Shown piece by piece: positions 12,559-53,600 of a stretch of 64,000 bases of DNA. The DNA comes from Amphiscolops sp. MND2022 (Eukaryota): positions 64,730,001 through 64,794,000 of the forward strand of contig OZ076409.1 in NCBI GenBank assembly GCA_964187785.1. Reading direction: 5' to 3'. Numbering within the stretch: the first letter of the stretch is position 1; every line of letters begins with the position of its first letter. The position numbers were made by a program, and so were the translations under genes. A model generated the notes under the pieces. It made no database searches. It had not been told where the DNA came from and worked only from the letters and a program-made list of their open reading frames with translations.

Positions 12559-12743
12559 CCTCGGATATGTCCCATTCCTTCTAGTGCCCCGCGGCCCCTT
12601 GGGGCCGCTTATGTTCCATCTTGCTAAGCGAGGTCGAACAGGAGCAAAGACCTAGCGGGAACGGAGATCGCGAAGCGATCGTAGTGGGAGCTGGTCTTTG
12701 CGACGGTGAGGGCGAGTGTGCATACACCGCATATGCCCCACAT
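12559..12743. other. GC-rich structured cassette A (copy 1 of 3)
   Basis: Near-identical to 31672-31860 and 32646-32834. Hairpins GCGGCCCC-TT-GGGGCCGC and GATCGC-GAA-GCGATC; long stem GCAAAGACC/GGTCTTTGC. Confidence 0.75.
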
Positions 12744-12880
12744 TTTGATATTTTCGCTTTCAGAAAGCCTTTTTCGAAACATGATCATTTAGACGTTATT
12801 CCCGTTTGGTCAGTAGTAGTAGTAGTAGTAAAAGACTCAATTCCTTTTTAAAGGGTGATACGACATCAAATTGTAATGAG

Positions 12881-15712: not shown

Positions 15713-15730
15713 ACATCTCAGAGAGTCTAG

Positions 15731-16615
15731 TCAAGTAGATTCAATTTCAACTTCTTTGTTTTGATAATAGAGTTTTAGGTTTCGTATACGGAAATCTTTC
15801 TTGTCTTTATTTTCTGCGTGGATCATATGATATCTTTTGGATAGAATGTTCTTTTCACGTTGGCGATCAGCAGAGGATAAAAGTTTTTTGATGTAGACAC
15901 GATAGTCGAATGTTTGGAGATGGTGACTGCGAGCAAAACAGTGGTTCATGAAGAGAGGATTCGTTGCAGTAACAAGTATTGGACGACATCGTGAACTAGA
16001 ATTCTCTCCCTTATCGGACTCCTTTGTTTTAGAAATCTTTCCCAGTCGGCGAATAGCATTTATATTGCCTTCAGTGCGCAAACCCATGTGCTGAATAATA
16101 TCATCAACCATTTTAGTGTCTTCTTCAACTTGTTTAAAGTATTTTTCTTCTTTTTCAGGAATCCCAGTAATGATAAACTGAGGTTCAGAGGGAGGTTTCT
16201 TGGCATTCAAAACAATATCTCGATAAGAGGGAAGAGAGCTGGTAACAGCCTCTTTGACGTTTTCATTCATGTCAGGTAAGGCATTTTTAATAAGGCCAGG
16301 TACAATTTCAGATACTGAATTTTTAATGGTGACTTGAAAATCGGACAAAATTGAATTCAACTTAGCTTCAGTAAGAGAAGAGACGGCTTCTTCATTGGCA
16401 GTGGGAAGGCACACGTCACAGTTCCATTGGATGTTGGGCTTCTCCCCCAACCAGACAATTTCATCAGAGCTTAGTCCAGCACAGGAGCCATGAACCCAGG
16501 ATGCACAACGGGAACACCCAATACAATTCATATCGTCGTCTTTAATCAACTTCTTGCAGCAACCACATTTGATTGTAGATTTAGAACCACACCTTGGTCT
16601 CATCTTGGGCTTCAT
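15731..16615 (-). CDS. LINE ORF1 with N-terminal PHD finger
   Basis: CxxC...CxxCxxWVHxxC...WxCxxC PHD pattern, followed by IITGIPE/RRLGK/RPILV motifs typical of CR1/L2 ORF1. First ATG at 16615 (the ORF track starts at GTG 16651). Confidence 0.85.
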   Translation of the reverse strand: MKPKMRPRCGSKSTIKCGCCKKLIKDDDMNCIGCSRCASWVHGSCAGLSSDEIVWLGEKPNIQWNCDVCLPTANEEAVSSLTEAKLNSILSDFQVTIKNSVSEIVPGLIKNALPDMNENVKEAVTSSLPSYRDIVLNAKKPPSEPQFIITGIPEKEEKYFKQVEEDTKMVDDIIQHMGLRTEGNINAIRRLGKISKTKESDKGENSSSRCRPILVTATNPLFMNHCFARSHHLQTFDYRVYIKKLLSSADRQREKNILSKRYHMIHAENKDKKDFRIRNLKLYYQNKEVEIEST

Positions 16616-18263
16616 TACATTGAATATGAAACTATTTAATAAGTTTATCACAACAAAAATATTTATTAGGTCATTTCGCCTAATTTTCTTAGGCGAAATG
16701 ACTCAACTAAATTTTTAGGCGAAATGGCATTAGGCGAAATGACCTGCATCCAATTTGCCCACGCCTGAGGCGTTTCAACATTCAAGTCCACAAAGTCCAT
16801 CTATATTTTGACAAAAATTTACCAAAAATAGTGAAAATCGGAAAATTTTCGAAACTTTGTCTTTTTCGATGTCAATTCCGGTTTAAAAAACTGAATTTAT
16901 CTCTTTTCTAAGCATACTGGACATTACGTTTTTTCCTTGTTGACCTTTGTCGATGTTCCAATCCACGAAGACCGACAAAAATTTGGGGAAAAAGCATAAA
17001 GTCATTGAAAAATAGAACATTTTTCGATTTTTGTTTTTTTTCGGTGTTACATGGAGACATTTTCACATACAAACCTGCAATAAACTCTTCGAAAAGCCTA
17101 CTGGACAATACATTTTTTACTTGTTGACCCTTTTCAACGTTCCAATTGACAAAGTCCGTTAAAAATTTGCAGTTAAATGCATAAAATCTTTGAAAAAAGA
17201 AAAACATTGTGGTTTTTGTCATTTTCGGTGTCAATTTGAGATTTGTTTGTTTGAAAAACAGCAATTATCTCAATTATCTCTCCAGAAAAGCCTACTGGAC
17301 ACCGAATTAGTGCCATGTTGAGCGTTTTCAAGAGTGTAATCCACAAAATTCATCAAAATTTTGTCCAAAAATTTTATAAATCGGGAAATTTTTGATTATT
17401 CGTCATTTTCTGGTTTTTTCTTTCCAGCATAACCTCATTCATCTCTCATAATCAACTACTGGACAACAAATTCTTGCCTTGTTGAACCTTTTAACATTCT
17501 AATTCACGTTATGTATCAAAAAAATTGCACTAAAACGTAAAAACTTTGAAATTTTTGCAAACTTTCTCTTTTGGGGGCATTTTTGGGTCATTCTGCGTTT
17601 CTTGGGGTCAACTAAAAAGTCCAGAAGTCTCCGCAAACACAAATCGCACGAAGCTAAATTTATGTGGGTTGCATTCTATGGGTACCACCCTTCAAATTAT
17701 ATATGAGATTGGTGCTTGGCAAATCTTGTTCTATATATCTTGTTGTTGCAGAACTGCTTCTTTCCCGGACTTACTTGCATCGCAAAAAAGTTTTATGGGA
17801 AGACTTCTTTCAGAACTTCCCACTTACACAAGTTTTTTTACCCTTCCTTTGATTATTCTAAATACAGGAAATACAGGTTGGTCTCTCGTTGTTGTGGGCT
17901 GAATTCATGGCACAGCTGTGCTTGCATTTGTAAGAACTTATGCATTTTTTCTAACGCTCCTAATTACGACCTTTTGAAGGCCTTAATTTCAGTTGTTTAT
18001 ATTGCTCCGATTAGCTCTGGGGAATATCTCGGGTGCATAATCGGATTGGCCTTAACGAAAAGCGTCTCTCAAGCCGTGTGGAGCTCGGTGTTCACTCACG
18101 AGGGAAATTTTGAAAAAGACTAAATTGAAGCCCTGTACTTTTAGATGCCGACAACGTCTCAACTTCACTGAATCTCAACCAAGATCTACAAAACATCTAA
18201 ATATTCTACCCTCTCTAAAAAATGGCATTTCAAACTCCTACAAGGAAGCATCCGCTTCCTCAT

Positions 18264-24366: not shown

Positions 24367-25214
24367 GTAGAAAATACTTTACAACAATCCCTACATTCCG
24401 AAAGACCCGAAATAGAACGTGACAGGTGGTTTACTGCGACTTCATCTTCGAGGAACGGGAATACTTTCTGCGTTTTTTGAAAACATCGGGAAAGTCTCTC
24501 AATAACGACAACATCCATCTCAAAATGATCAAGTAGGCAGGTTCCCGATATAAAGAAGTCCGTTTTCGAAATGCAAACCGAAAACGGAATAAAAAGCACT
24601 GGAATCATTCAAAAGTGAAATTTCAGAGGAAGCAAGGTAAAACAGACTACACGACACCGTCAGCGTATCTGCCGATAACAACCTCTAGCTATATCGAAAA
24701 AATTGTGGAAAGATTATTGAATGCCAGGCTGAGCAGCTTCTTCTAAAAATTCAACGTGATAGACGAAGAGCAGCAAAACTTCCACTTCCAGTAGAAAATA
24801 CTTTACAACAATCCCTACATTCCGAAAGACCCGAAATAGAACGTGACAGGTGGTTTACTGCGACTTCATCTTCGAGGAACGGGAATACTTTCTGCGTTTT
24901 TTGAAAACATCGGGAAAGTCTCTCAATAACGACAACATCCATCTCAAAATGATCAAGTAGGCAGGTTTCCGATATAAAGAAGTCCGTTTTCGAAATGCAA
25001 ACCGAAAACGGAATAAAAAGCACTGGAATCATTCAAAAGTGAAATTTCAGAGGAAGCAAGGTAAAACAGACTACACGACACCGTCAGCGTATCTGCCGAT
25101 AACAACCTCTAGCTATATCGAAAAAATTGTGGAAAGATCATTGAATGCCAGGCTGAGCAGCTTCTTCTAAAAATTCAACGTGATAGACGAAGAGCAGCAA
25201 AACTTCCACTTCCA
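24367..25214 (+). repeat. Near-identical 424-bp tandem duplication inside LINE-A
   Basis: 24367-24790 is repeated as 24791-25214; only two substitutions noticed. Confidence 0.9.
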
Positions 25215-26355: not shown

Positions 26356-29300
26356 GTTGGAGAACAAGACGTTTCGGCGACACTATGGTGGCGGACTTTT
26401 CGACGACAAAAGTGTCGCTGAAACGTCTCCTCATAGATACGTTTGCTACTTTGTTGCCCAAACGTCCTCAAAATTATTTTTGTTTTACTGTTTTTATATT
26501 TTTTTTATCACAAAACTCAAAATTATGTATTTCAGATGATGGAAAATGGCATGAAACCATTGTTCGTTTTCGAGGAATATTATCCAAGCAGTAGCGAGGA
26601 GGACCAGACGGAAAGTGCTCCAACAACCAAATGTTTTTGCCCAGTTATAAGATCCGGCTCCGCGCACAATCACGGAACCCGAAGATATTAAGTACGAAAT
26701 TCTGGAACATGGTACTAAAAGGCGATCTGATATGTTAACATCCAGTGACGGGTAGTGTTATACGAAGCTGCGCCATAATGAATCTGGTCAGAAAATGTAT
26801 TGGCGTTGTGCAGCAAGGAGCGCAAAATGTTTTTGCAAGGCAACAATTGTGCAGGACGGAAATGAACTTTAGCAAGGACCAAGTCCGCACAGTCACCCAC
26901 CTGATTTTGAACTAGCATCAAACACTATTGTGTATTGTTCAAGTCAAGTCAGAGGAAAGCGGAACGTCTTTGAGCCAGCCGGATCCATTGCCGAGTCTGC
27001 AATAGCGAAGGAAAATATAACATCAACTACACCATCAGCATTAGTTCGAGCCATCAATCGAGCACGTCAAAGCGACCATTAGGAAGAACCAACAGAATTG
27101 TTTTTCAAGTTAAACGAAGAGCACTTTGCTTTTGCTGGCTTTTTGCTGGCGGATATGAATGTTCGGGGTCAACGACATTTCATATTTGCGACTCCTGAGC
27201 AATCAGATCTACTGGGATCTGCTCAACATTTATATGTAAATGGGATATTTATGATCGTACGCAAGCCCTTCATCCAACTTTGGAATATCAATGCTTTTAT
27301 CGCAAGTGGTAGCAAGTTTATACAAGTTCCAATGCTGAATGATCTAATTTCCAGCTGTCGCAAATCCGATTTTGTGGCAATTCTGCGGAAAACAAATGAT
27401 TTGGTACCTGGATTTTCTCCGCTGGAGAATATTGCCGACTTTGAAGCGGCATTATGGACTGCTTCTCGTGTTGTATACCCTAGCATTCAAATGAAATGTT
27501 GTGCGTTTCACCTTTGTCAGGCTATTTATCGAAAAATTACAGATCTTGGTTTGGGAATTCGTTGTCGGAATAATACTCGCACACAGGTTATACGTCAGAA
27601 ATTATTGAGCCTAATATTTGTCCCTGTTGTGTGCGTTTAAGTCGAGTTTAAAACTTTATGGAAACACTTTATTCCTGATCCACATTTTATGCTTTGTTTG
27701 AATACTTAAATAGTTCCTAGTTATCGCATCCTGTTTGGAGTACTACTAATACTACTGAAAGACCTAAATCCTTTGTAATAAAAGGCCTGTGCTGAAAAGG
27801 CGGTATAAAAGTTTTTTACATGGTAAAAAGTAAAATTTCAAGCACGACAGATGCTACAAGAGCACTTAATAAACCAAGTGCATGGAACGATTCATGTCGA
27901 AGGAAAACACTCGATTATGAAGGTAAAAAGAAAGGTCCCTTCTGAATCAGTTGAAGTTATCGAAGACAGATATATTGATTGCTGATAGGTAGCTAGAGTA
28001 GCAGCAGATTCTCTGGAAGTAAGATTCCTGGGTTTTTAATTTGTGACAGGGCTTTACTGGAGAAAGATGGATGAATTTGGAGCTTCTGAGATCTTTAGCA
28101 GGATGGCTAAAACATATAAAGTCTTTAATATTTAGGTCATATTTGCCATGGATGGTCTTATTAGGGAAAAGCATGTCTTGGAAAACAAGATAAAACAACA
28201 TTGGAAGCGTGTATGTTGCAGCAAATTGATCAAGATAGCTTGATAAACCAGTAACCCATTTCAGGCAATTCATGTTGACTAATCCCATTTTACGTCTGTA
28301 AATCAATGAAGGGTACCATATTTGGGAACCAAATAGCAAGACACTCAGTACACACAGACGATAGTAAAGTAGCTTTGTACGGGTACAAACATTTCGAGGC
28401 AGGTTTCGTTTCAAAAACTGGAAAGCCTTCCTAGCTGCAATTAATTTAGTTTGAATATGCTTGTCCCAGAATAAGGTGTCAGAAACCATGATACCCAAGT
28501 CTTTGATAGTATTTACAACTTGTAGTTCGTTGCCATCCAGGAAGAACGGGCCTATTGGTTCTCTATTTTTGAAGTTGACGTTGCTTTTGTCAATATTGAC
28601 TCTCATTAGGTTTTCGCCCGACCAGTAAAGAAAACCGATGATATCATGCTGCATATCAGAAGTTATCAAGACTGAGTGAAGTTTACTGTCATCGGCAAAC
28701 AAGTAACTCGAGGATGTTTTCACTGTTTTGGGTAGATCGTTTATGAAAATAAGAAATAGAAGGGCGCCGAGCACGCTCCCCTGAGGAACACCACTTGTAA
28801 TTTTTGCAGAATCAAAAAGACACCCATTTACGTATACCTTTTGAGATCTTTGATTTAGATAGTATTTGAAAAACACCAAGAAATCGGAGACAAAATTTAA
28901 AGAAGTCTATTTCTGTAGGAGTTTGTGATGAGAGACCCGGTCAAAGGCTTTGAAAAAACCAAAATAGACTGACAAGCTGGGTCCATTTACATCAAGTTGA
29001 AGATACAATTGGTCAAGATAAGGAAGTAATTGCGTAACTGTTGGTCGATTTTTAAAAAAACCAAGTTGTTGGTCACAAATCAATGATCGTATTTGGGGAT
29101 AAATGAAACGAATAATATTTTTTTCAAGAATTAGGGATAATTGAGGCAAATTGCTAACTAGACAATAACTTTCCACATTTTCGGGATTACCAGATTTGAG
29201 AATTGGCTTTATGGTAGAACATTTCCAGAAATCAGGCCACTGTTTTGATTTGATATTGGTAATAAAAAGCTGTGTGACAAGAGGTGCTAGTAGCCCAGGA

Positions 29301-31319: not shown

Positions 31320-32231
31320 GGGTGGGCGGAAATAGATCGAAGGAACGGGATCGAAAATCAGAGTTAGTCCTCAGGTCGCCATACCAAATTTTTGAATGGG
31401 ATCGAAACAACTCGGATCGAAATTTTTATAACTTAGTCTGAGATGTTCACATGATAAATGGTCACTTGACTTAATGCCATTTGGCTTAGTCATTTGGCTT
31501 AATACAATTGGTCACTTGGCTTACTTTTTTTAAGCTAAGTGTCTCGGGTATTGGTTACTTGGCTTCAAGTCATTTGACTTAAAACCACTTAGTTGAAAAC
31601 ACGTGGCAGATTTTGTCGAATTTCACTTCATAACGTAGTCAGCGTATTATTATAACATGTCATATCAAGTACCCCTCGGATAAGTCCCCATTTCCTCTAG
31701 TGCCCTGCGTCCCCTCGGGGCCGCTTGTATTCCCATCTTGCTAAGCGAGGTCAAACAGGAGCAAAGACCTAGCGGGAACGAAGATCGCGAAGCGATCGTA
31801 GTGGGAGCTGGTCTTTGCGAAGGTGAGGGCGAGCGTGCATACACCGCATATGCCCCACATTATGATATTTCCGGGAGTTGACATATTTATTCCTTGAGTT
31901 GGAATGGAGTTGGCCTAATTTTGTGGTCACTTGGCTTAAAATTTTTAAGCCAAATGACTCGACGAAAAAATTAAGCCAAATGGTATCAAGCCAAGTGACT
32001 GGTAACCGTTCACATACCCCTAGGGCCCTGAATGCAGGAGTGAAGCGAATCGGAGCGACGTGCCATATGGTCATGCCTCAACGTTGCTACTTGGCGAAGG
32101 GAGCGAAGCGAGCGAGCCATACAACAAATACGATAAAATTCGACCGCATTCCATTCGATCCCTGCAATTCGATCAAAAGGTTCGACCTTTTTCCTTTCGA
32201 CCAGAAAAATTCGACCTATTTACAGCCACCC
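31320..32231. mobile_element. Non-autonomous Mutator-like MITE inserted in the 3' end of LINE-A
   Basis: TIRs GGGTGGGCGGAAATAGATCGAA / TTCGACCTATTTACAGCCACCC. 9-bp TSD ATGAATTTC / ATAAATTTC. Confidence 0.75.
31453..32007. mobile_element. MITE with GTCAYTTGGCTTAA terminal arrays, carrying cassette A
   Basis: Inverted TTGGCTTAA/TTAAGCCAA arrays; perfect 8-bp TSD GTTCACAT at 31445-31452 and 32008-32015. Confidence 0.85.
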
Positions 32232-32424: not shown

Positions 32425-32850
32425 GGTAAATGGTCACTTGGCTTAATGCCATTTGGCTTAAAGTCATTTGGCTTAATCTAATTGGTCACTTGGCCTAATT
32501 TTTTTAAGCTAAGTGTCTCGGGTATTGGTTACTTGGCTTCAAGTCATTTGACTTAAAACCACTTGGTTGAAAACACGTGGCAGATTTTGTCGAATTTCAC
32601 TTCATAACGTAGTCAGCGTATTATTATAACATGTCATATCAAGTACCCCTCGGGTATGTCCCCATTTCCTCTAGTGCCCTGCGGCCCCTCGGGGCCGCTT
32701 ATATTCCCATCTTGCTAAGCGAGGTCAAACAGGAGCAAAGACCTGGCGGGAACGGAGATCGCGAAGCGATCGTAGTGGGTGCTGGTCTTTGCGAAGGTGA
32801 GGGCGAGCGTGCCCACGCTGGATATGCCCCACATTTCAGTTTTCTTATTC
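32425..32850. mobile_element. Truncated second copy of the TTGGCTTAA MITE with cassette A
   Basis: Near-identical to 31453-31860; right TIR missing. Confidence 0.75.
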
Positions 32851-33003
32851 CTTTAGATCCTAGGCAGTGGAGCTCTCAGGATCTTGTGTCAAGGATGTCC
32901 AGTTTGTAGATATTAATGATTCAGATTGTAGGAGCACCTAGGACCAGTTTGTAGAATTCTACAAACTGGTATTTTACAAACTGGACCTATTTCGAAAGAA
33001 CAC

Positions 33004-33330
33004 TTGCTCCTACACGAAGCATCAATCTCGAAAGTACACGTTTTGATGGTCAAACTCAGAACTTTGAAAGTGGCTGCAAAACTGCGACAATTTACTCATC
33101 TCAAGCCAGTATTGTATAAGATAACCCGTTGGAACAGTGTTCATACCATGATTTCGAGGTATTTAGAATTAATTCACGGATTGTTGAATACAAGCATTTT
33201 GAGACTGGTGTTGGCAATATTTTGGAAGGTAAAGATGAAGCTTTGACAGTGTCAGAAATCATTCAATGTACGGTGCTCAGAAGGAATGAAAGTGATGGAA
33301 ATGATGAAATGGACACGATCCGAATACAAG
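33004..33330 (+). mobile_element. hAT transposase remnant
   Basis: LKPVLYKITRWNSVHTMISRYL matches the TRWNS motif of hAT transposases; frameshifted. Confidence 0.6.
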
Positions 33331-33980
33331 GCGGCGATTTCGCCAATGGACTCTGGGGTCAACGCTTCACACTCTGGGGTCATATTTTTTCGTTGTCAAA
33401 ATCTTTAATCCATTGACCAAATCATCAGAACAGCTTGACGATCTGCAAAAATATCACTGAGTCTTGTTTATATATAGAAAGTCTCAATCAGCCCCTATAT
33501 GAGGGGGATGTTTATCACATGATAAGCAGTTGTGTTTTGTCAGACAACGAGTGTCTGAAATGCTAAAATATCGATCGAGAAAACTCAATGTTGAAAGTAG
33601 TGTCGGTCGGCTATTTTAGTGGGGAGACTTCGAATATGAGAAAGAAATACCATGTGTTCGTATTCCAGCAGCTTGGAATTGGGAAAGAATTATCATGTGT
33701 TCGTACTCTTTGACCAGTTTTGAAACTGGGAAAGAAAACCATCTGGAGATAAAATAGAAAAACTAAGAATTTTCCCGGGATTTTTTCAGGAAGGTTTGTT
33801 TCTAACTTAATTCTCTTGGTTGTTAGAATTGGTTGGAATCGAAAGTTCGCAAAATCGTTTGCTGATTGATTCTCTTTTGTTTCCTTTCAGTCGTGGTCTT
33901 GTATTTTGAATGTATTCAAGCGTGATGCAGCATTATCAAGTTTCAGAATTCTGAAGTCATGAAATCTTTTCAGGAATGAC

Positions 33981-34718
33981 ATGTCGAAAATATCATCTTA
34001 TCGCTGCATAGAGTGTGGTGTACGGGTCAACGATTTGTTCATGAAGGGCGCAATGGTCGAGGAACTCAAACCAATTACTTGCAAGCAGTGCAACAGTCTC
34101 GTGGATCAATATGTCGAGTTTGACTCAATATTAGTAGTTCTTGATCTGATGCTTCTGAAAAGGCGCGCTTTCAGCCATGTCCTTTTCAACATTCCCATGA
34201 AAGCGGGTGTCCTTAAGTTATGGGTAATGATGTTGTTTGCCCATGCCTATTACAAGTGGTGGCGAATGCAGGAAGCTGAGAGTCTTTCAGACGTAGGAAA
34301 AAATAGTGAAACGAGAACTAAAACTGATTATAGTAGGCTTGAACTTCAATTTTATGCGCTTTTGCTGCAAAAATTGATTGAAGACGTATTTTATTATGCA
34401 ATAATGGCAGCTTCGGCATCTGCATTAATCAAATGTTCCGTTCTTCACGTTGATTTGACAACATACCTGAAATCTTTGTTGTTTGGGAAGTTCGCCAGAC
34501 TATATGTCTTCGGTGTCTACATTTGGTCTTCTCCGGCGGAGTTATCAATGTGTATATTACTTCTTGAGACATATGTACTTGTTTGTAGATATATTTTCAT
34601 CGCTTGTTGCTGGACTTCGAATAGAATCCAGATGAAATCAATTATCCTATTGTGCATTAGTGTTGCTTTTGAGTACTTTCTTGATAAAAATTTGAAGTTG
34701 TATTCCTTGATTATATGA
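33981..34718 (+). CDS. ARV1: Protein ARV1 (ER sterol/lipid homeostasis and GPI-related membrane protein), 245 aa
   Basis: Arv1 homology domain YRCIECG...CKQC...DQYVEFDSILVVLDLMLLKRRAFSHVLFN followed by hydrophobic TM segments. Probable 5'UTR intron at 33794-33890. Confidence 0.9.
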   Translation: MSKISSYRCIECGVRVNDLFMKGAMVEELKPITCKQCNSLVDQYVEFDSILVVLDLMLLKRRAFSHVLFNIPMKAGVLKLWVMMLFAHAYYKWWRMQEAESLSDVGKNSETRTKTDYSRLELQFYALLLQKLIEDVFYYAIMAASASALIKCSVLHVDLTTYLKSLLFGKFARLYVFGVYIWSSPAELSMCILLLETYVLVCRYIFIACCWTSNRIQMKSIILLCISVAFEYFLDKNLKLYSLII

Positions 34719-35818
34719 CATTTTCTTTCCTTTGATTTAGTATTGTTTTACATTGATTCAAGTCCTTCCTTATATGCAAACACGAAATTAAATGACTTTC
34801 AGATCATTTTTTACTGATATTCGGCCTGGTTCAACAGATATGAACAAAACATCAAGAAACATCGATAATTTACTCAACTTTACTTGAATACTATAAAATT
34901 TTATTCCATTGTACGGTGTGAACTGCTAGCCCAATGTTGGTGGATCAGATAGTGGAATTTTTGGGCATCAAATAACTGGTGGAAAATTTTGCCGATTATC
35001 TGATTGACTCTTGTCGATGATTAGGATAATCGTTTTTCACTGAGATGATGAACTCGCTGATTTTTTGAGTAAATGTTTACAGCATATTTTTATTTTCCGC
35101 CCATATTTCATATGGGAAAGGAATTATTTAAATCAAACGGTTTTTTTCTACAAAATTTGCCAAGCACCAAATTTATATTTAACTTTAAGGGTGTTACCCA
35201 TAGAATTCAACTCACATAAAGCTTCGTGCGATTTGTTTTTGTGGAGATTTCTGGACTTTTTTAAGTTGACCCCAAAATGAGAAAATTTCTATTTTTTAAC
35301 GTTTTGAGGCAGTTTTTGTCAGTTTTTTTGATAGTTATCGTATATTTACACTTGCGATAAGCAGTTGTGTTTTGTCAGACAACGAGTGTCTGAAATGCTA
35401 AAATATCGATCGAGAAAACTCAATGTTGAAAGTAGTGTCGGTCGGCTATTTTAGTGGGGAGACTTCGAATATGAGAAAGAAATACCATGTGTTCGTATTC
35501 CAGCAGCTTGGAATTGGGAAAGAATTATCATGTGTTCGTACTCTTTGACCAGTTTTGAAACTGGGAAAGAAAACCATCTGGAGATAAAATAGAAAAACTA
35601 AGAATTTTCCCGGGATTTTTTCAGGAAGGTTTGTTTCTAACTTAATTCTCTTGGTTGTTAGAATTGGTTGGAATCGAAAGTTCGCAAAATCGTTTGCTGA
35701 TTGATTCTCTTTTTTTGTTTCCTTTCAGTCGTGGTCTTGTATTTTGAATGTATTCAAGCGTGATGCAGCATTATCAAGTTTCAGAATTCTGAAGTCATGA
35801 AATCTTTTCAGGAATGAC

Positions 35819-36556
35819 ATGTCGAAAATATCATCTTATCGCTGCATAGAGTGTGGTGTACGGGTCAACGATTTGTTCATGAAGGGCGCAATGGTCGAGG
35901 AACTCAAACCAATTACTTGAAAGCAGTGCAACAGTCTCGTGGATCAATATGTCGAGTTTGACTCAATATTAGTAGTTCTTGATCTGATGCTTCTGAAAAG
36001 GCGCGCTTTCAGCCATGTCCTTTTCAACATTCCCATGAAAGCGGGTGTCCTTAAGTTATGGGTAATGATGTTGTTTGCCCATGCCTATTACAAGTGGTGG
36101 CGAATGCAGGAAGCTGAGAGTCTTTCAGACGTAGGAAAAAATAGTGAAACGAGAACTAAAACTGATTATAGTAGGCTTGAACTTCAATTTTATGCGCTTT
36201 TGCTGCAAAAATTGATTGAAGACGTATTTTATTATGCAATAATGGCAGCTTCGGCATCTGCATTAATCAAATGTTCCGTTCTTCACGTTGATTTGACAAT
36301 ATACCTGAAATCTTTGTTGTTTGGGAAGTTCGCCAGACTATATGTCTTCGGTGTCTACATTTGGTCTTCTCCGGCGGAGTTATCAATGTGTATATTACTT
36401 CTTGAGACATATGTACTTGTTTGTAGATATATTTTCATCGCTTGTTGCTGGACTTCGAATAGAATCCAGATGAAATCAATTATCCTATTGTGCATTAGTG
36501 TTGCTTTTGAGTACTTTCTTGATAAAAATTTGAAGTTGTATTCCTTGATTATATGA
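35819..36556 (+). pseudogene. ARV1: ARV1 duplicate with premature stop (Cys34 TGC>TGA)
   Basis: Near-identical to copy 1, but has TGA at 35918-35920 plus one Thr>Ile change. Confidence 0.85.
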
Positions 36557-37182
36557 CATTTTCTTTCCTTTGATTTAGTATTGTTTTACATTGATTCAAG
36601 TCCTTCCTTATATGCAAACACGAAATTAAATGACTTTTAGATCATTTTTTACTGATATTCGGCCTGGTTCAACAGATATGAACAAAACATCAAGAAACAT
36701 CGATAATTTACTCAACTTTACTTGAATACTATAAAATTTTATTCCATTGTACGGTGTGAACTGCTAGCCCAATGTTGGTGGATCAGATAGTGGAATTTTT
36801 GGGCATCAAATAACTGGTGGAAAATTTTGCCGATTATCTGATTGACTCTTGTCGATGATTAGGATAATCGTTTTTCACTGAGATGATGAACTCGCTGATT
36901 TTTTGAGTAAATGTTTACAGCATATTTTTATTTTCCGCCCATATTTCATATGGGAAAGGAATTATTTAAATCAAACGGTTTTTTTTACAAAATTTGCCAA
37001 GCACCAAATTTATATTTAACTTTAAGGGTGTTACCCATAGAATTCAACTCACATAAAGCTTCGTGCGATTTGTTTTTGTGGAGATTTCTGGACTTTTTTA
37101 AGTTGACCCCAAAATGAGAAAATTTCTATTTTTTAACGTTTTGAGGCAGTCTTTGTCAGTTTTTTTGATAGTTATCGTATAT

Positions 37183-38313
37183 TTACACTTGCGATAAGCA
37201 AGTGTTATGGGAAAGTGCGAGTGCTTTTTTTTCCGCGCGACAACTCATTTCACGCGGCAAGTCGCACATTTCACGCGTTCGTAGTCTAGTGGTAAGATGC
37301 TTGCTTTTCAACCCAGAGGTTTCGTGTTCGAACCTGTGGGTATGTGCTTTTTTTACAAGTATTCCGAAGCAGAAGGTTCTCACATTTTTCGGCACTATGA
37401 GACTTTTCGGCTTTGTGCGACTTTTTTCGAAATTTTTAAATTTCCCCCAAAGAGTCCTCCTTTATTTTTTTTTGATAATTTGCAACAGAACGAATGTTAA
37501 AAATCTCAAAGGGCCCCTTTTTCAGAATTTTCGGCACTATGAGACTGTTCAAAATTCTCATTTTTTGTTTTTTTTTCAAAAAATTTTTAATGTCTACAAA
37601 GGGTCCACCCTTGTCTTTGATATCTTGCAACAGAACGAATGTTGAAAAATCCCAAAGGGTCCCTTTTTTCAGATCTTTCGGCGCTATGAGACTGCCATTA
37701 AAATTTCTCAATTTTTGTTTTCGAAATTTTTCAAAGTCTCCAATTTTTTGAAATTTTGCAACAGAATGGATTTTAAAAAATTTCAAAGGGTCCCCTCTTT
37801 CACAGTTTCCGGCATTGTGACATTTTTCAAAAGGAATAATTTTCGTGTTAAAATTAGGTTTTCTCAGGTCCGGCACGCCATATCCGATTTTTGTTGTTTT
37901 AAAAGACCGGTATTTTATCTATGCGACTTTAAAATTTTGTTTCACCGAAGCCCCTCCTCAATTTTTGCCAGAAACGAAACGTTTTGCGAGAGTTAACGAC
38001 TCCTCAGGGTTTTCGGCACTATGCGACTTACCGGAGACCATCAAAAATTTAGTCGAAAAAATTAGAAAAAAATGTTTCCTCAATTTTCTGTTTTTTAAAG
38101 GTTTTTCGTTTAGAAAGGTTTTTTGCTGTTTTTCAGTTGGGGAAAATGGTTTTCGAGACTTGTGCGTTTCCTTTCGGGTATTTTTTGGCGCTGTATATTG
38201 TGAAATTGATGAAATTTTAATTTCTTTTACCCTTAGTTCTCCTTATTATATTGCTTATTTGGTTTTCTTCAAAAGTTCGCAAGTGTTTGCGAAGCACGGC
38301 TTCGCCTCTGTGT
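37183..38313 (+). mobile_element. Non-autonomous Helentron-like element, terminal type 2 (HINE2), with tRNA-derived head
   Basis: 5' ACACTTGCGA within the hairpin ACACTTGC-GATAA-GCAAGTGT. 3' TCGCAAGTGT followed by the hairpin GCGAAGC-ACG-GCTTCGC and CTCTGTGT. Inserted at a T-rich site with no TSD. Confidence 0.8.
37275..37347 (+). pseudogene. tRNA-derived (Glu-TTC-like) sequence within HINE2
   Basis: A box TAGTCTAGTGG, B box GTTCGAACC, TTC in the anticodon position; stems degenerate. Confidence 0.55.
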
Positions 38314-40902
38314 AGAATGTTGAAAACGTTCAACAAGGCACAAAGGCGTTGCTCAATAGTCTTTTATGAAGAGATAGTTGCTGTTTTCCAGAAGAAAAAA
38401 ATCTCAAATTGACATCGAAAATGACAAAAACCAAAAATTTCCCGATTTTTAACGTTTTTATGCAATATTTGTTAAAGTTTCCACAGGCTTCGTGGATTGG
38501 AATGTTTTAAAGGGTCAACATGGAAAGGGTTGGTTTTTCAGTAGTCTTTTATGAAGATATTATTGCAATGTTCTGAATGAAAATGTCTGAAATTGACATC
38601 AAAAATGCCACAAATCCCAAAATTTTCCAATTTTCAAAACCTTTGTGTATTTTTCCTAATGTGTTCTCCAGTATGCTTAGAACAGAGAAAAATGCAGTTT
38701 TACAAACGAAAGCTGTCCGGACTTGACATCGAAAAAGACAAAATTTCGAATGTTTCACGATTTTCACTATGTTTGTTCAATTTTGTCAAAATATCGATAG
38801 ACTTCGCGGACTAAAGTGTTAAAACGCCCAAAACATGGGCAAATTTGTTGTTTTGGTGAGTTTTTTCTACGAGATAAAATCTGTTGTTAAAGAAAAATGC
38901 TTCAAATTGACCCTGAATTGTCGAAAAATTGAAGTTTGTCGTTTTTGATTCAATTTCCGAGACATTTCGTTCTAAGTTCCAATACAATCAGCGACCTATG
39001 CATTACAATTTTAGAGGAGAAAGTAGCAGTGTTTTCCTTCCAAAATACTTCAGAATGACTCCAAAGCAGTCGAAAAATTTCAACATCTTCGTTTTTGTGT
39101 AACTAGCGTACTTTTTGAATTGTTTTGAAGTCGGAATGTTGGCAAACGTTCAGCAAAGATTGAACTCATAATCCAGTAGACTTTTCAAGAAATATTTGTG
39201 GACTTCTGTTTGAAAATGGCTCGAAACTAACCGCAAAAATTCGAAAATGTTGAAATTTTTTCCGATATCTGCCATTTTCAATTAAATTTTATTTGAGATT
39301 GGAAAGTTTCGGTATAATAGAAGCTTCGAAAAGTTCAAGATGATAAAACTAGGTCCGAAGCACGTTTTTCAGAAAAATCGCGAATTTATGGTCGAAAGTT
39401 TTCTCAGCATGTCCCAAATATCGGAAAAACTGAGAATTTTCAAGTTTTTAACATTTTAGGCCGTTTTTTGTACGTTTTTTGAGCTACCTTCTTGCATAAA
39501 ATAGTTTGAAAAACTCAGCATTGACTAATCCGGGTATCTCCAGTAGGCAATTTTGAAGAGATAACAGCATTTTTTTGTTGGAATTGGTCTCAAAAACAAC
39601 CAAAAATCCATGAAACAACAGAATGCCCGTTGTTGGACAAACTAATCCGAATTTTTGTTCAAACCACGAACGTTTTTGAAGAATAGAACTTCCAAAGACG
39701 TGAGCGTTGAAACAACAAGATTTTGAAAACGCAATTGGGGAAAAAGTGGGATGAAGTTCATCGAGTTTATAACAAAGGTATCAAAGTTTCCGAACTTCAT
39801 TTTCGACAACATAATCCCAATTTTGGACCCTTTCCGAAAAATAACTTCAATCAGAATACCATACACTCAGGATCGAAACGTGTAGCTACAGATAGTGTTT
39901 CGAAAAAATATCAGACAAGTGTATTTGCCCAACTTTCAAAAACTTTACTTGAAAACGTAACTGTCGACCTCATTTATCCAATATTTGATATTCAAAAACC
40001 TCCAAGCAGAATCACTAGATATGGAGTACACCTTCCAGAGAAAAATGTTTCCAGCTACTTCGTGGGTTAGAATGGTGTAAACATTCAACAACAACTAAAC
40101 CCGATGTCCAATAGGTTTATTTTTGAAGAGACATCTGTAGATTCATGTTAGAAAATTTCCTCAAATTGACCCCAAAGTTGTCAAAACTATTTCCAATTTT
40201 TGACACTTCTGGTGAAACTATGTGCAGTCAAACAAAAACCGGGATCTTTCCTAAATTTGCAAAGGACCTGATTTCAACTTTGCCAATTTCTTAGTGCCAA
40301 AAATTACCTCAAGAAATACGCCTGAGACTAGGAAACCACTTTTGCCCCAACAGGAATCACGAAAACTCCAATTTTTTGATTTTTTTCCAGTAAAGTTTTA
40401 TTCAGCTCGCAAAACTACTTTTTTCAAGCCGAAATCAGCTATAAAAGCAAGGGGTACTCTTTGGCCAAATGAAAGTTTCGGAAAGACGCACAGAGCCGAA
40501 AAATTTGAAATGAGGTAATTTCCACAATCAATAAGAAACCTCGTCAGTTCCATATGATCATAAGTAACAAAGAAGTCTCCCTAAAGACTCGGAAACTCAT
40601 TTTTTACAGCAAACCTCAAAAACTAAAAATTGCGGAAAATGTTTTTCGAAACTTATTTTCAAAAATTTAATTGAAATTTTTCTCTTTTCTCGGTAAGTCG
40701 CAAAGTGCCAAAAAACGAAAAGTGGCCAGCTATCGCAGAAATAATAAATTAGGTGTTTCCTTTAAAATGGGCTAAATGAATCAAAGCTTGATTTTCTTCG
40801 AACTTCTTTGCGTTTTTTAGTGCATTGGCTATTCTTGAGCCTCAAGTTTATGTAGTTGTAGAACAGTTTGGGGCGGAAAATATCTCGCTGCTCAGCGGGC
40901 GT
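38314..40902 (-). repeat. Inverted copy of the large AT-rich repeat at 8352-11500; continues on the other side of HINE2 at ~36990-37180
   Basis: 40861-40902 is the reverse complement of ~8352-8394 (ACGTCCGCTGAGCAGCGAGATA...), and similarity continues colinearly. Confidence 0.75.
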
Positions 40903-41699
40903 CTTGTTGAAATCTACTTCGAAACGGTGTCTGTGACTTCTAAAATGACAAAAATTTGAATGAAAAATCCAAATAGCTGAAATAAATACATCAACTTCAT
41001 GGCATTGTTGGTCATTTAAACCAACTGTTTACAACGAACGTCTCCTAATGGAACATCCGTTTTGTAGTATTGTATTGCTGCTTTTAAAACCGATAGCCCC
41101 TCAAGATAAAACAGCAATTAAGCGACGACAGGACACATGACCGAACAGACTAAAGTTGGACAGCGCAAACAATCTGAAGCTTTTGTTGTCACTATATTAT
41201 AGGAAGCGCTATATCTTAGACAACATCCTGGCTTAAACATCCGCGACTAGAGTTCTCTCGTGTGTACACCGTTTCCACGTTAAATGAAGCACATCAGATG
41301 TTAAATGAACAACCAATAGAAATTGATTAGCTTGCTACAGCAAATCTCAAATAATGTGAACGAAATCGCAGCTTGAATGAAAGTGTAAGCGAATGCCGCA
41401 TACGATTTTGTGTACATGTACAGCACTCTATGGTCAGCGTTTGTTAAATTTGAAAGCGTCGTTGGTGATTCTTATTCGCTAACTCACTTGGAAGCTGATA
41501 TAGTTCACTTGAATTCTGATTGTAAAGCACTTTTAGTTTGGTGGCCGGTGATTGGCTGAAAATTTGGAACGAAAGCCGAGACGATTCACTTAAAATCTGA
41601 TATGCTTCACTCAACGCGGAAACGGTGTATTTTGAGCCCCCTCAGCCACCATTGGTGTTTCTGACAGCATGCTGTGGTGTACCGTATCTTGTAATTCTA

Positions 41700-47600: not shown

Positions 47601-50600
47601 ATCCACTCTCTTATTGTTATTACTTTGACTCCGAAATCATTAGCGCTGTAATATTGTTTAAGCTCCTTGTGTTTCTTCACCAAAAAGGAGAAACTTTTTC
47701 CATTGTACAAGAAAACATTCCTTGGCTCGGAAACTGTTTGTCAATGCTTCTGTATAGACGAAGAGTTTCTTGGAAAGGCAAGAGGTCTGTTATGATCAAC
47801 AATATTTTGAAAATTAGAGACATTTGAAACAAATTTGGTTCCAGAAATATTTAGGCCTCATCGCTGAAATGTACATTTATTGATTTTGTTTAGTGTAACA
47901 GTTATACCACAGAATTTCTGTCATCAGGTCGGTAATTCTTTTGTAACTTAAGCTGACTGATGTCTTGATTAAACTGATACTTCGTTTGTGATTTTTATTT
48001 GGAGATCTATTTGAAACAAATACTTTTTAGCTTGACTGTTGTTGGTTTCAAATTCGGAAGTTTCAGCTGAATTTCTTTTCAGTTATCGATATCGAAGAAT
48101 TTTCTTACGTCGACGAACAGTTTTGGAAAAGATGATTTGTTGATTTCCATTAGACCTAGGAACGTTTACTTCATGTTGCCAAAAAGCTGAAGACTGCTAA
48201 TGACTGGCGGAATTATTTCTTCATACATACCTTGACAAAATGCTCGACATCAGCAGCAAAAGCCTTAGATTTCCTTCCGAAGTGCAATGATTTTTTGTTC
48301 TGTAATTGGATGAAAATCACGAAAATAAGATCTTCTGGAATTTGTGAATATTGGAATTTTCGAAAACCACTGGTCGTAGAAACAAGAACTGGTTGAACAT
48401 CTAAAGTCGGCGCTATATCTAAGGCTAAAAAAGCGCAGTTTTTAAAATATGCGTAGGACTCCTCCTCCTTAATAAAACGCAATATAGTTCGGATATAACG
48501 TCAGTAGGTCGAATATAGCGGATATTATAATTCGGATATTACGAGGGGAGATTTCAATAAAATCAAAGGGGGACCCTATGGAGACAAAAAAAATCGAAAA
48601 GTCTCTGTAGGTAGGGGGACCCTTTGCACTAAGTTTCCGCTGGCCGGAATTGGCCTCAGTAGTTCTAGTAGTTTCTGTAAAAAGAGGACCTTTCAGTGTG
48701 AGGTCTGTGGTCTCAAGAAAAAAAGGTCACTGTAAGAGTCGGACATTTTTCCTTTAAAGGGAAATGCGCCGACTAAAAACGCTCTTCAAACATTGTAGCA
48801 TCGTCTCGCTGCTCCAGGAAGTGTAGTTGATTTTTTCATTTTGTGAGTTTTGCGCCGTTAATCGAAAGTGTTCGAATCGAAAGTAAAAGAAGAGGACCAA
48901 GCTCGAAAGTGTCAAAGAAAACCTTCGATCACTGACCTTGGTATCAAAATACAAACGCGTGAAGGAAGTTTAATGCAACTCATAATTTTATGATCTTCTT
49001 TGAAAAGAAAGTCATATTGGAAGGAGTGGAAGGGTGAAAACGTAATTCCTATATCAGAGCGACATTTTGAACATGCCCAAATAACATATAAATGATCAGC
49101 AAAATCTGGGTTTTGATGGATTTTTGAGGAAAGGGTGTTGAAACTGATCGAATCCAAATTATGTTTTTTTCCCGGGAAAAATGGTATTTCGGATAAAATA
49201 GGAAGACTTCGATAAATCTAGAAAAGCAGTTTCAACATTTTTGCTGTTAGATCTCGAACCTCTACACAGTAGATGAAGGAGCATCAGACTTTTCAGAGTC
49301 TTCTGTTAATTCGATAGTTCAAGAGTTTCGTATATCACTCTGCTGTTGACTAGATGTCGTTGGTCACATTTTTGAAGATTATGTGATGTGCACCAGCTTG
49401 AAATGACTGGGAAAACGTTTTCGCCCATAAATGTTGTGAATATGTACGGTAATAGCGTAACTAAATTATTGGAGCCATATTCTATTGCCCATGCTGGTAT
49501 GTTGTGGGCCTGAAAGCTCTGGATTCTTTTTTACGAATTTCTTCGCTGCTTTATTTTGAAGTGGCGGAACAGAAAAACCTTGCTTGTTGGCGAACATCGA
49601 ATCGTATACATTTTAATATCACCGATGTCTGAGTTAGGAAAACGTATAGTTCAAGATTCGCAGTTTCTCATGCGATTCTATGTCATCGAAACAGCTTCTC
49701 AGTCTATCAATTATATAATTTAATTTGCTTTAGTTCTATTTCTCACTTGTTTATTGACAGTTTGTTTAAGCCATTTTGATATCGGCAGCAAGTTTTAAAT
49801 TTGACTCTCGCTTGATATTTGGATTTATTTTGTTACGCATAGAAGTTAGACTTTTTGAAAAGAAGCAATTGGTATTAACCCGCGTTTCTTTTCACTGAAT
49901 AGCAGATGAAATTCAATTCAATGGCTGTTTACACTTGCGATAAGCAAGTGTTATGGGAAAGTGCCGTTGTGCTTTTTTTTCAGACTCGCACAACAACATC
50001 TCTCGTTTCAGCCCGCAAGTCGCATAGTTCAGGCGTTCGTGGTCTAGTGGTAAGATGCTTGCCTTTCAACCCAGAGGGTTCGGGTTCGAACCTGTGCGTA
50101 TGTGCCAATTTTTTTTACAAATATTCCGAAGCAGAAGGTTCTCACTTTTTCGGCACTATGAGACTCCACCCTTTTTTCGGCTTTGTGAGACTTTTTTTTC
50201 GAAAATTTATTAGTGTCCCCAAAGGGTCCTCCCTTCATTTTTTTGATATTTTGCAACAGAACGAATGTTAAAAAATTCCAAAGGGTCTTTCTTTCAGATT
50301 TTTCGGCACTATGACACTGTTAAAACTTCTCATTTTTTTCGAAAATTTTTCAAAGTCTCCAAAGGGTCCCCCTTCATTTTTTTGATACTTTGCAACAGAA
50401 CGAATGTTGAAAAATTCCAAAGGGTCCTTTTTTCAGATTTTTCGGCACTATGAGACTGTTTTTTCGTTTTTTTCGAAAATTTTTCGAAAGACTCCAAAGG
50501 GTCCCCTTCATTTTTTTTTTGAAATTTTGCAACAGAATGGATGTTAAAAAAATCTCGAATGGCCCTCCTTTTACAGGTTTCGGTATTGTGAGATTTTTAA

Positions 50601-53600
50601 AAATGAATAATTAGTCGGTGCTTCATGAAGTGAAACGCGACTATTATAGTGGCTTTTCTTTTTTTTCAATCCACACGAACTGACCAAAATAGTTCTTAAA
50701 AGTTCTACAAAATATTATTGCACCAAATTGCACTATTTGGTCTAGCGAACTGAACCAAAAAGGTTTTTCCTGTTTTCCCGCGTAACATACCATACTGGGC
50801 GAGCCCAAAGGGTCCCCCCTTTCAATTTTTTTTGGCACTGCGAGACTTTTTTTGTGGAAAAAAATTTTTCCCCAAAGGGTCCCCCCCCCAAAATTTTCCC
50901 CTTCAATTTTTTTTGCTGTTTTGCGACAGAATGGATGTTGGAAAATCCCAAAGGGTCCCCCCCTTTCAGTTTTTTTCGGCACTGTGAGTTTTTTTCTGAA
51001 AAAAAATTTTTCCCCCTTTAATTTTTCGATGTTTTGCGACAGAATGGATGTTGATTTTTCGATGTTTTGCGACAGAATGGATGTTGAAAAACCCCAAAGG
51101 GTCCTCCCTTTCAGTTTTTCGGCATTGTGAGACTTTTTTCCTAAAATTATTTTCTCTCCAAAGGCCCCCCTTCAATTTCTTTGATATGTTACAACAGATT
51201 GGGTGTTCAAAATCCCAAAGGATACCCCCTTTCAGTTTTTCGTCGAAAATTTGTTTTTTCTCCGAAGGGTCCCCCCTTCAACTGCGACAAAAATGTTGAC
51301 AATTTCGGAAGTGTCCCCCTTTTAGCGCGCCAGGGGCTCGCGCTAGCGGGCCCCGGCGCGCCACTCGGTTCATTTTTTGAGTATGTAATTTTTTCGAAAA
51401 ATTTTTGTTTTTGATTTTCGAGTACTGTAAAAGAGAATACTTGACACTTGGAAGCCTTTTTGCTATTTTTCAGTCTTGGATATGGCGCCGACTTGGGCCG
51501 GTCCCGGCTTGTTTTTGTCTTAAAATTAGGTTTTCTCAGGGCCCAGCACGCTATATCCGATTTTGTTTTTTTTTTGAAGACCGGTGTTTTTTCTATGCGA
51601 CTTTTTTCTAATTTGTTTTCATCGAATCCCCCTCTCAATTTTACTTGAAACGAAACGTTTTGCGAGCATAAAGGACTGCTCAAGGATTTCGGTACTATGC
51701 GACTTACCGGAGACCTTCATCAAAAAAATTTTCGGAAAATTTTGAAAAAAAATTCCTCAATTTTTTGTTTTTTGAAAGGTTTTCGGTTGAGAAAAATGTT
51801 TTTTTTTGCTGTTTCCAGTTGGGGAAGAATGGTTTTTGAGGTTTATGCGTATCCCTTCGGGTATTTTTGGTGCTGTAAACTCGATAAAATTTCAACAATA
51901 ATGTCCTTTTACTCTTGGTTCTCCGTATGATATTGCTTATTTGGTTTTCTTCAAAAGTTCGCAACTTTCTTCGCAAGTGTTTGCGAAGCACGGCTTCGCC
52001 TCTGTGTTCAAATATTTCGCTTAACGTTGGTTAACCGGCACCTTATTGCGCGTATACATTTTCAGAAACATTTTCAGCCGAGTACTCCTCCTTTTAGTAA
52101 AAGTGCAACAGCTTTTCTTGGGAACAAAACTGTTTTCGTCCTTGATACCAACTGACCCAAGAGGTGTTTCAAAGACAATTACTCTCTGATACTTGGCACC
52201 ACTATAGTGATTAATTTGTTTTTCTTGTTAGTACAGTTTGCATTACAGATGTTAAATCATATGATCAGCATAGTTTCAAGAGATTTTTTGATGGAGACCA
52301 AGTCTTCGTTATTGTAACAACCCATTTAAACCATGGTCTCGTTCCGAATCTATCAAATGAGGTTTCAAATTCATCTAGGAAAAGCTAGATTTTGTGGGAA
52401 TTATTTATTACTGTCGTTTAAATTTGGTGGATGCTTTGCTGTCGCATTCTATCCCAAGACTCAAATGTATGTCGAAGTTAACTTCATATTTTTTCGCGTT
52501 TTTTTAAAGCCGCAATCCGACTTGTGTGGCACAATTGAGTCTTTATTCAACGACCATAAGTTTCAGTTGGTGCATCAATTGTGTTAGGAATGGTCTCACG
52601 CATCAGTTTTTTCTTCAACATGAGTGTTTGACAGTTAATGGTCACATATTTGAACGGTCATAGTGATTTCGCTTAGCTTTTGCTTCGACGTAGCTGATGG
52701 GTCTCGAGTTTTCCATCTCACCGCAAAAAAATTGTATTATTTTGTAATAACTGATTGCTTCGCTCTGTCGTTTGTTGACAGGCTCTCTCGTTTGTTGAAT
52801 GCAAGTCTTCTTGGATAAAGTGTCCAAGGTTAAGGTTTTGGTTCTGAATTTGTTAAATAATGTAAGCTTTTATAATGTGGACGGGGATAAGATTGTGTAT
52901 GGTAGTAGGTTGTTGACTAATTTGGTTTTCTTCGAAAGGTTGCCCGCTATTAAATTCAAAAATACAGCAACATTGTATGTATTTATTGTGTTTTTAGACA
53001 GCCTTTTCGTTAGAAAACGGAGATTATAATAGTGGCTTTTTCAAGACCATCAATCTTATTTTTTTTAAGACCGACGAAGTGACAGATTTTATAAATTTTG
53101 TTCAACTTGCAGACAAGTGAACTACGGACCTACAAAACGTACTAGAACCTCGCAACATACCAAGGCTCCCTTTGGTGTTTTCAACTTTTTTGGCACTGTG
53201 AGACTTTTTCTTTCTGAAAATTATTCTGCGCTTTTTTCGTAAGAGCAGACTATAATAGTGGCTAATTTTTTCAAGTTCCAGTGCGACTCGTCCAAGGCCT
53301 CCCGAACTCAAAAAAAATTGAAAAGCAATGCCTTTCAGGTTGTTTTTTATCTAGTTACACGCTTTTCTTGACTCATGCTGAATATACTTGTTTGTTTCTC
53401 ATAACATCTAACACGTACATAAATTCGGATAAAACGTTTTCAAAGTTCGGATGTAACATTTTCATTTCTCGTATAACGTTATCGATTTTTTATCAAAATT
53501 TCACATAATTTCCGTCCAATGTAAAGCTTCAGGGCCATGTTTTCAGTACTATAAGACACTTTGGATTTTCAAAAAGTCTTTATTCAACAGGTGATACTAC

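What the first reader, a model, noticed from the sequence alone, without database searches (positions are those of the whole stretch)
33509..37205. ARV1 tandem duplication joined by 8-bp microhomology between two hairpins, one being a Helentron-like 5' terminus
Seen: the unit begins at GATAAGCA (33521), the right arm of the imperfect hairpin TGTTTATCA-CA-TGATAAGCA. It ends at GATAAGCA (37193) inside the HINE2 5' hairpin ACACTTGC-GATAA-GCAAGTGT. The junction at ~35345-35363 carries only the first ~16 nt of HINE2 fused to the ARV1 upstream region. Established: Helitron/Helentron transposases nick element termini and can mobilise flanking DNA; microhomology template switching produces tandem duplications. 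Inference: a nick or stall at the HINE terminus duplicated a whole host gene, giving an unusually clean snapshot of rolling-circle-element-associated gene duplication.
Basis: partly seen in the sequence, partly recalled or inferred. Interest (0 to 1): 0.8.

Follow-up and report, generated by a model that had tools for sequence, protein, structure and literature searches.

The report
Transposon-edge duplication yields broken ARV1 copy
A 1.8-kb head-to-tail duplication of the lipid-handling gene ARV1 ends inside the hairpin at the start of a rolling-circle-type transposon, likely through an ordinary copying slip at an 8-base match, and the second copy carries an early stop codon, so this is likely routine genome turnover rather than a new gene.

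Summary
The duplication is in the sequence: 33521-35355 and 35356-37192 differ by 4 substitutions and 2 T-run indels, and are joined by the 8-bp microhomology GATAAGCA (chance about 3e-4). The right breakpoint lies at nt 11-18 of a structurally complete non-autonomous Helentron-type element (37183-38312), inside its strong 5' hairpin. Three corrections. (1) The left 'hairpin' is chance-level: 55% of window positions have one as stable nearby. (3) The geometry is not rolling-circle capture: the DNA 5' of the element was copied, and the join is inside the element, not at its end. Best reading: a host microhomology template switch at the hairpin (0.5). Abortive transposase initiation remains possible (0.18), as do coincidence (0.2) and assembly artefact (0.1). 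No reads or genome were available, so junction support and genome-wide enrichment are untested. A second young tandem duplication in the window has a blunt join and no such element end. The scan's notes showed nothing similar on other DNA.

The parts
33521..35355 (+). Copy 1 of the tandem unit (1835 bp)
35356..37192 (+). Copy 2 of the tandem unit (1837 bp)
33521..33528 (+). Left breakpoint, microhomology GATAAGCA
33509..33528 (+). Weak imperfect palindrome (-2.4 kcal/mol), chance-level
33981..34718 (+). Intact single-exon ARV1 reading frame, 245 aa
35819..36556 (+). ARV1 copy 2, broken by a stop at codon 34 (35918-35920) and carrying T161I
35346..35363 (+). Junction: first 10-18 nt of the element fused to the unit start
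35150..35345 (+). Duplicated end of an older repeat (family B) into which the element inserted
36987..37182 (+). Family-B repeat, part left of the element insertion
37183..38312 (+).
37185..37205 (+). 5' hairpin (8-bp stem, 5-nt loop); 10-bp subterminal repeat 37185-37194
37193..37200 (+). Right breakpoint, microhomology over the loop and 3 nt of the right arm (element nt 11-18)
37275..37336 (+). Weak tRNA-like stretch inside the element
   Evidence: 20.4 bits, below gathering 29; E 0.068
38277..38305 (+). 3' subterminal inverted repeat (38277-38286) followed by a 7-bp-stem palindrome (38289-38305)
   Evidence: read from the sequence
38313..40908 (+). Family-B repeat, part right of the insertion
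49929..52006 (+). Second full copy of the element, identical termini, 79-83% identical interior

Best explanation
This is a young 1.8-kb tandem duplication that likely arose by a host microhomology template switch, likely provoked by the strong hairpin at the 5' end of a resident non-autonomous Helentron-type element, and its second ARV1 copy is likely a pseudogene. Order of events: a family-B repeat inserted downstream of ARV1; the element inserted into it at T^T (shown by paralogous empty sites); DNA synthesis then likely stalled or broke at the element's hairpin, and the nascent end ending in GATAAGCA re-annealed 1.8 kb away at the same 8 bases and re-copied the interval (inferred; the mirror route, with the single-stranded loop as landing site, gives the same product); copy 2 then gained a stop at Cys34. 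No transposase is needed for any step after the insertion.
For: Shown: 8-nt microhomology, chance 3.1e-4, and no longer homology at the breakpoints. The breakpoint covers the loop of a -8.1 kcal/mol hairpin; only 1.3% of window positions lie near a fold of -8 or better. Partners were available: 7 sites in the 11.8 kb upstream match 8 nt of the element's first 31 nt. The stub in copy 1 shows that the element came first. The join is inside the element and copies 5' flank, unlike the nick-at-terminus, 3'-read-through model (PMC4778049, passages). Both coding differences hit columns invariant in 4 of 4 aligned ARV1 proteins (C34, T161) and are in copy 2. After the stop, the first ATG is out of frame (7 codons); the in-frame one (M57) would drop the zinc motif, which human ARV1 needs for lipid binding in vitro (PMC11952846, passages).
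Against: One event only. The window's other young duplication of 400 bp or more (24367-25214, 2 differences in 424) has a blunt join and best folds of -1.2 and -4.8 kcal/mol, so duplications form here without such a hairpin. A polymerase blocked by a template hairpin would be expected to stop at the stem base (nt 2-3), not at nt 11-18 (inference). The element family looks recently mobile, so a transposase was probably present. An 8-bp stem is short for a fork block (own knowledge). No reads were seen.
Confidence: 0.5

Rival explanations
1. Abortive rolling-circle initiation. The Helentron transposase nicked the top strand at the element's 5' end (37182/37183), the flank's free 3'-OH was extended 10-18 nt, synthesis aborted, and the end re-annealed upstream by microhomology, duplicating the 5' flank. 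A variant places the event during insertion, when the element strand is single-stranded and its loop is exposed.
For: The breakpoint is 10-18 nt to the 3' side of the expected nick, the side on which a primed 3'-OH grows (model in PMC4778049, passages). Helraiser also cut at an internal AT on the bottom strand of its left end in vitro (same passages); the loop here holds an AT, but that is a different element family. The two element copies share 37 of 37 and 38 of 38 terminal bases while interiors are 79-83% alike, which implies young insertions (chance 0.05 at 2% decay per copy).
Against: No RepHel motif in any stop-free frame of 100 aa or more in the window (two simple motif patterns), and the genome could not be searched. 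The upstream site must be single-stranded, which needs a fork or resection anyway. The second element copy in the window shows no such duplication. One case.
Confidence: 0.18
2. Ordinary microhomology duplication whose breakpoint falls in the hairpin by coincidence.
For: Young tandem duplications are common here: 1835 bp, 424 bp and a perfect 33 bp in 64 kb. With four breakpoints and 1.3% of positions near such a fold, about 5% of such windows would show one hit, and the case was picked after the fact from a very large scan.
Against: The breakpoint hits the loop of one of the most stable short hairpins in the window (0.3% of 9139 sampled 30-nt frames are as stable).
Confidence: 0.2
3. Assembly or library artefact: two haplotypes, or an amplification chimera, joined in tandem.
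For: The 189-aa product of copy 2 is on 1 contig only, whereas intact ARV1 of this cluster is on that contig and two others (P0001 on 2 contigs, P0006 on 1). Several differences lie beside homopolymer runs. Amplification chimeras use short homologies (own knowledge).
Against: A chimera within one molecule would give identical copies; one between haplotypes would need a null ARV1 haplotype. The 3 differences that can be polarised all fall in copy 2 (two by protein alignment; one by a single paralog). Intact 943-aa and 294-aa retroelement frames in the window suggest accurate consensus (inference). Absence from other contigs fits polymorphism or collapse as well.
Confidence: 0.1
4. Canonical Helitron/Helentron gene capture by terminator bypass or composite transposition.
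For: Proposed for DINE-1-associated duplicates (PMC4067079 section 15).
Against: Capture takes the 3' flank and joins at an element end; here the 5' flank is copied in place, the join is internal, and there is no 3' end around the unit.
Confidence: 0.02

Closest known systems
HINE / DINE-1 non-autonomous Helentron partners (PMC4067079, passages and section 15; PMC7492417, passages)
   Same: Subterminal inverted repeats, 5' hairpin, 3' palindrome, central tandem repeats of about 140 bp, T^T insertion without target duplication.
   Different: Subterminal repeat is 10 bp (11-13 reported); no clear microsatellite; a weak tRNA-like stretch; autonomous partner not found.
DNAREP1/DINE-1 at breakpoints of young Drosophila gene duplicates (PMC2211543, passages)
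   Same: A HINE-type element at the breakpoint of a young gene duplicate, mechanism left open.
   Different: Those are dispersed duplicates, mostly functional, explained by ectopic recombination or mobilisation; this one is tandem, has only 8 bp of homology and is broken.
FoSTeS / gap-filling template switches at DNA transposons (PMC8277862, passages)
   Same: Transposition-independent, microhomology-guided duplication at a transposon's fragile site.
   Different: That study concerns TIR elements that capture sequence internally; here host DNA is duplicated beside the element.
ToxB tandem amplification by a proposed Helitron-like unit (bioRxiv 10.1101/2025.11.13.688278, passages)
   Same: Tandem gene copies with a Helitron-type interpretation.
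   Different: There the edges recur across independent events and the unit itself is read as the element; the authors rejected microhomology repair. Here there is one event with a clear microhomology.
Helraiser 3' transduction (PMC4778049, passages)
   Same: Rolling-circle element next to copied host DNA.
   Different: Opposite flank, no join at the terminus, no movement to a new site.

Membership tests
HINE (non-autonomous Helentron) | Subterminal inverted repeats | tested here: met
   37185-37194 and 38277-38286 are exact reverse complements, 10 bp, read; the same in the copy at 49929-52006
HINE (non-autonomous Helentron) | 5' hairpin formed by the subterminal repeat and a nearby inverted repeat | tested here: met
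   -8.1 kcal/mol, 0 of 200 shuffles
HINE (non-autonomous Helentron) | Palindrome after the 3' subterminal repeat | tested here: met
   7-bp stem 38289-38305 read; region folds better than 199 of 200 shuffles, though the predicted lowest-energy fold is a different pairing
HINE (non-autonomous Helentron) | Insertion in TT without target-site duplication | tested here: met
   2 of 2 copies lie between T and T; two paralogous family-B empty sites align across the site
HINE (non-autonomous Helentron) | Central tandem repeats | tested here: met
   spacings 146 and 131 in this copy; period 139 in the second copy
HINE (non-autonomous Helentron) | Autonomous RepHel(-endonuclease) partner with the same termini | not testable with these tools
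   no genome held; no motif in the window
Rolling-circle gene capture (3' transduction) | Copied host DNA lies 3' of the element and joins at a terminus | tested here: not met
   copied DNA is 5' of the element, join at nt 11-18
Microhomology-mediated tandem duplication | Short identity at both breakpoints, beyond chance, no insertion | tested here: met
   8 nt, chance 3.1e-4
Microhomology-mediated tandem duplication | Junction exists in the animal's DNA | not testable with these tools
   no sequencing run was available to lay on the region
Non-allelic homologous recombination | Long homology at both breakpoints | tested here: not met
   left flank 33000-33520 has no match elsewhere in the window
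ARV1 family | Pfam PF04161 above cut-off with two Cys pairs | tested here: met
   97 bits against 20; C9, C12, C34, C37 invariant in 4 of 4; copy 2 breaks at C34

The most novel reading that the evidence does not exclude
Helentron transposases create tandem duplications of the DNA 5' of their elements: an aborted rolling-circle start leaves a primed end 10-18 nt inside the element that slips back by microhomology. Every active HINE 5' end would then be a one-sided hotspot for duplicating neighbouring genes, a route distinct from 3' read-through capture and a candidate explanation for the long-noted link between DINE-1 and young gene duplicates. I did not find this route described in four searches.
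Probability: 0.18. Interest if true: 0.6.

Novelty: new member of a known kind. Interest (0 to 1): 0.22.

Why it matters
As it stands, little: young microhomology duplications beside repeats are common, and the extra copy is broken. Its use is as a base-resolved example and as a recipe for a test. If duplications in this genome pile up just inside HINE 5' ends, on one side only, that would tie rolling-circle initiation to host gene duplication, an association left mechanistically open in Drosophila (PMC2211543, PMC4067079).

Tried and rejected
Whole genome: none held, so the genome-wide breakpoint test and the search for an autonomous partner could not be run. Sequencing runs: none was listed for 33000-37300 (no RNA holder listed), which is no evidence either way; no reads were laid. 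Collection scans with an 18-nt terminal motif: 13 metagenome loci, 0 of 13 continue as the element or as the junction beyond 2 bases, read as chance matches; 0 in viral contigs. Earlier findings: nothing by element sequence, ARV1 protein, nearby place or words. Left-flank frames 32955-33116 and 33120-33413: no Pfam family; no homolog among longer proteins for the second. Rejected: 'two hairpins' (left one is chance-level); unequal crossover between repeats (8 bp only); 3' transduction (wrong flank); a target-site duplication (1.8 kb, and the element has none). The fact that 2 of 2 coding changes are non-silent is not informative alone: 79% of possible changes are (1744 of 2205). Supplements of the papers were not read; terminal-sequence tables in PMC4067079 and cleavage maps in PMC4778049 may bear on the nick position.
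Full report
Observation. The window holds a head-to-tail repeat, 33521-35363 against 35356-37200, 99.6% identical. The copies are 1835 and 1837 bp and differ by four substitutions (34082/35920 C/A, 34462/36300 C/T, 34800/36638 C/T, 35314/37151 T/C) and two T-run indels: 0.22% divergence, 95% interval 0.06-0.56%. The same eight bases, GATAAGCA, stand at both breakpoints and at the join; random pairs of sites in this window reach 8 nt at 3.1e-4. The unit holds 460 bp of upstream DNA with what looks like a short intron (donor and acceptor read, not tested), a single-exon 245-aa ARV1 frame (PF04161, E 2e-27), about 430 bp of 3' DNA, about 195 bp of an older repeat, and the first bases of the element. 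Whether the whole promoter is included is not known.

The element. 37183-38312 has a second copy at 49929-52006. The two share 37 of 37 bases at the 5' end and 38 of 38 at the 3' end (each count includes a flanking T), while interiors are 79-83% alike. It has a 10-bp subterminal inverted repeat, a 5' hairpin (-8.1 kcal/mol, 0 of 200 shuffles), a 3' palindrome after the repeat, and central repeats of 131-146 bp. Both copies sit between two T's. This copy interrupts a family-B repeat, and two paralogous B copies align across the empty site with no target duplication. These are the features given for HINE/DINE-1 elements (PMC4067079, passages; PMC7492417, passages). The autonomous partner could not be sought: no genome is held and no helicase or HUH motif pattern hit a long frame in the window. 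Identical ends on divergent interiors imply that both insertions are young (inference).

The two hairpins. Only the right one stands out: 0.3% of 9139 sampled frames fold as well, and 1.3% of positions lie near such a fold. The left one is -2.4 kcal/mol, matched by 22 of 200 shuffles, absent on the minus strand, and 55% of positions have its equal nearby. By a looser count, stems of 9 bp with one mismatch cover 2.5% of the window, so it is mildly unusual as a palindrome but not as a structure.

The second copy is broken. The C/A difference turns Cys34 into a stop (35918-35920) and the first C/T gives T161I. C34 and T161 are invariant in 4 of 4 aligned ARV1 proteins, from 100% down to 45% identity, so both changes are derived in copy 2. 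A third difference is also derived in copy 2 by one paralog; the fourth cannot be polarised. After the stop the first ATG is out of frame and gives 7 codons; the in-frame ATG gives 189 aa without the zinc motif, which human ARV1 needs for lipid binding in vitro (PMC11952846, passages). Copy 2 is therefore likely a pseudogene. The protein collection holds the intact protein on this contig and one other, a one-residue variant on a third, and the 189-aa form only on this one. That fits a private or polymorphic duplication, collapse in other assemblies, or an artefact.

Mechanism. The element's first bases are in both copies, so insertion came first. In the Helraiser model the nick is at the 5' end, the flank's 3'-OH primes synthesis, and host DNA is captured by reading past the 3' end (PMC4778049, passages); bypass and composite transposition are likewise the routes proposed for DINE-1 duplicates (PMC4067079 section 15). 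Here the 5' flank is copied in place and the join is at element nt 11-18, so this is not capture. An 8-bp join with no insertion points to a template switch or microhomology end joining by host enzymes, as described for duplications at other DNA transposons (PMC8277862, passages). Partners are easy to find: 7 sites in the upstream 11.8 kb match 8 nt of the element's first 31 nt. What made the end is the open question. A stall or break at the hairpin needs no transposase and is my best reading (0.5). An aborted rolling-circle start predicts a breakpoint just inside the 5' end, as seen, and the family looks recently mobile (0.18). Coincidence is real competition (0.2): the window has another young duplication, 24367-25214, 2 differences in 424 bp, blunt join, best folds -1.2 and -4.8 kcal/mol, and a perfect 33-bp one. 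Artefact is 0.1. All steps after the insertion are inferred; no reads were seen.

Against my reading: a template hairpin would be expected to stop a polymerase at the stem base rather than the loop; an 8-bp stem is short; the left palindrome could still be the stall site with the element's loop as the landing site; and n is 1.

Comparison and novelty. HINE-type elements at breakpoints of young gene duplicates are known from Drosophila (repeats at 10 of 17 dispersed duplicates, 7 of them DNAREP1; PMC2211543, passages), and Helitron-like tandem amplification has been proposed for ToxB (bioRxiv 10.1101/2025.11.13.688278, passages). I did not find a tandem duplication of the 5' flank with its join inside a Helentron 5' hairpin, which cover open-access text only. 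PMC5148889 was seen as passages; PMC12182360, PMC7368036 and PMC8355091 only as search listings. Three papers hold 'acoel', 'genome assembly' and 'Helitron' (listing only). The case is a new member of a known kind.

Verdict. Real in the assembly, precisely described in most respects, but an ordinary kind of event with a dead product and an unproven cause. Interest 0.22; the bold reading has probability 0.18 and would deserve 0.6.

Noticed in passing
window 24367-25214: Second young tandem duplication, period 424, 2 differences, blunt join, no strong hairpin or element end found at its breakpoints.
   Followed up: partly
window 51021-51087: Perfect 33-bp tandem duplication inside the second element copy, 1-nt microhomology.
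   Followed up: partly
window 37275-37336 and the matching part near 50030-50090: tRNA-like stretch inside both element copies (Rfam 20.4 bits, below gathering, tested in the first copy only); may be a captured SINE head or internal promoter.
   Followed up: partly
window 36987-40908, 8346-11506 (minus), 16752-17729 (minus): Family-B repeat with ~180-bp internal repeats and short terminal hairpins, perhaps a second HINE family; the element is nested in it.
   Followed up: partly
window 12881-16615 (minus): Intact LINE: 294-aa PHD-finger ORF1 and 943-aa endonuclease/reverse transcriptase ORF2, so probably young.
   Followed up: partly
window 27083-27640: MULE transposase fragment (PF10551 at cut-off).
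   Followed up: no
window 53728-53808: ARAGORN calls a tRNA-Val(CAC).
   Followed up: no
window 31455-31861, 32427-32835, 12347-12756: A further repeat family; the two neighbouring copies are 95% identical and 974 bp apart.
   Followed up: no
window 32955-33413: Two in-frame stop-free stretches just left of the duplication with no Pfam family or homolog found; perhaps a decayed coding sequence.
   Followed up: partly
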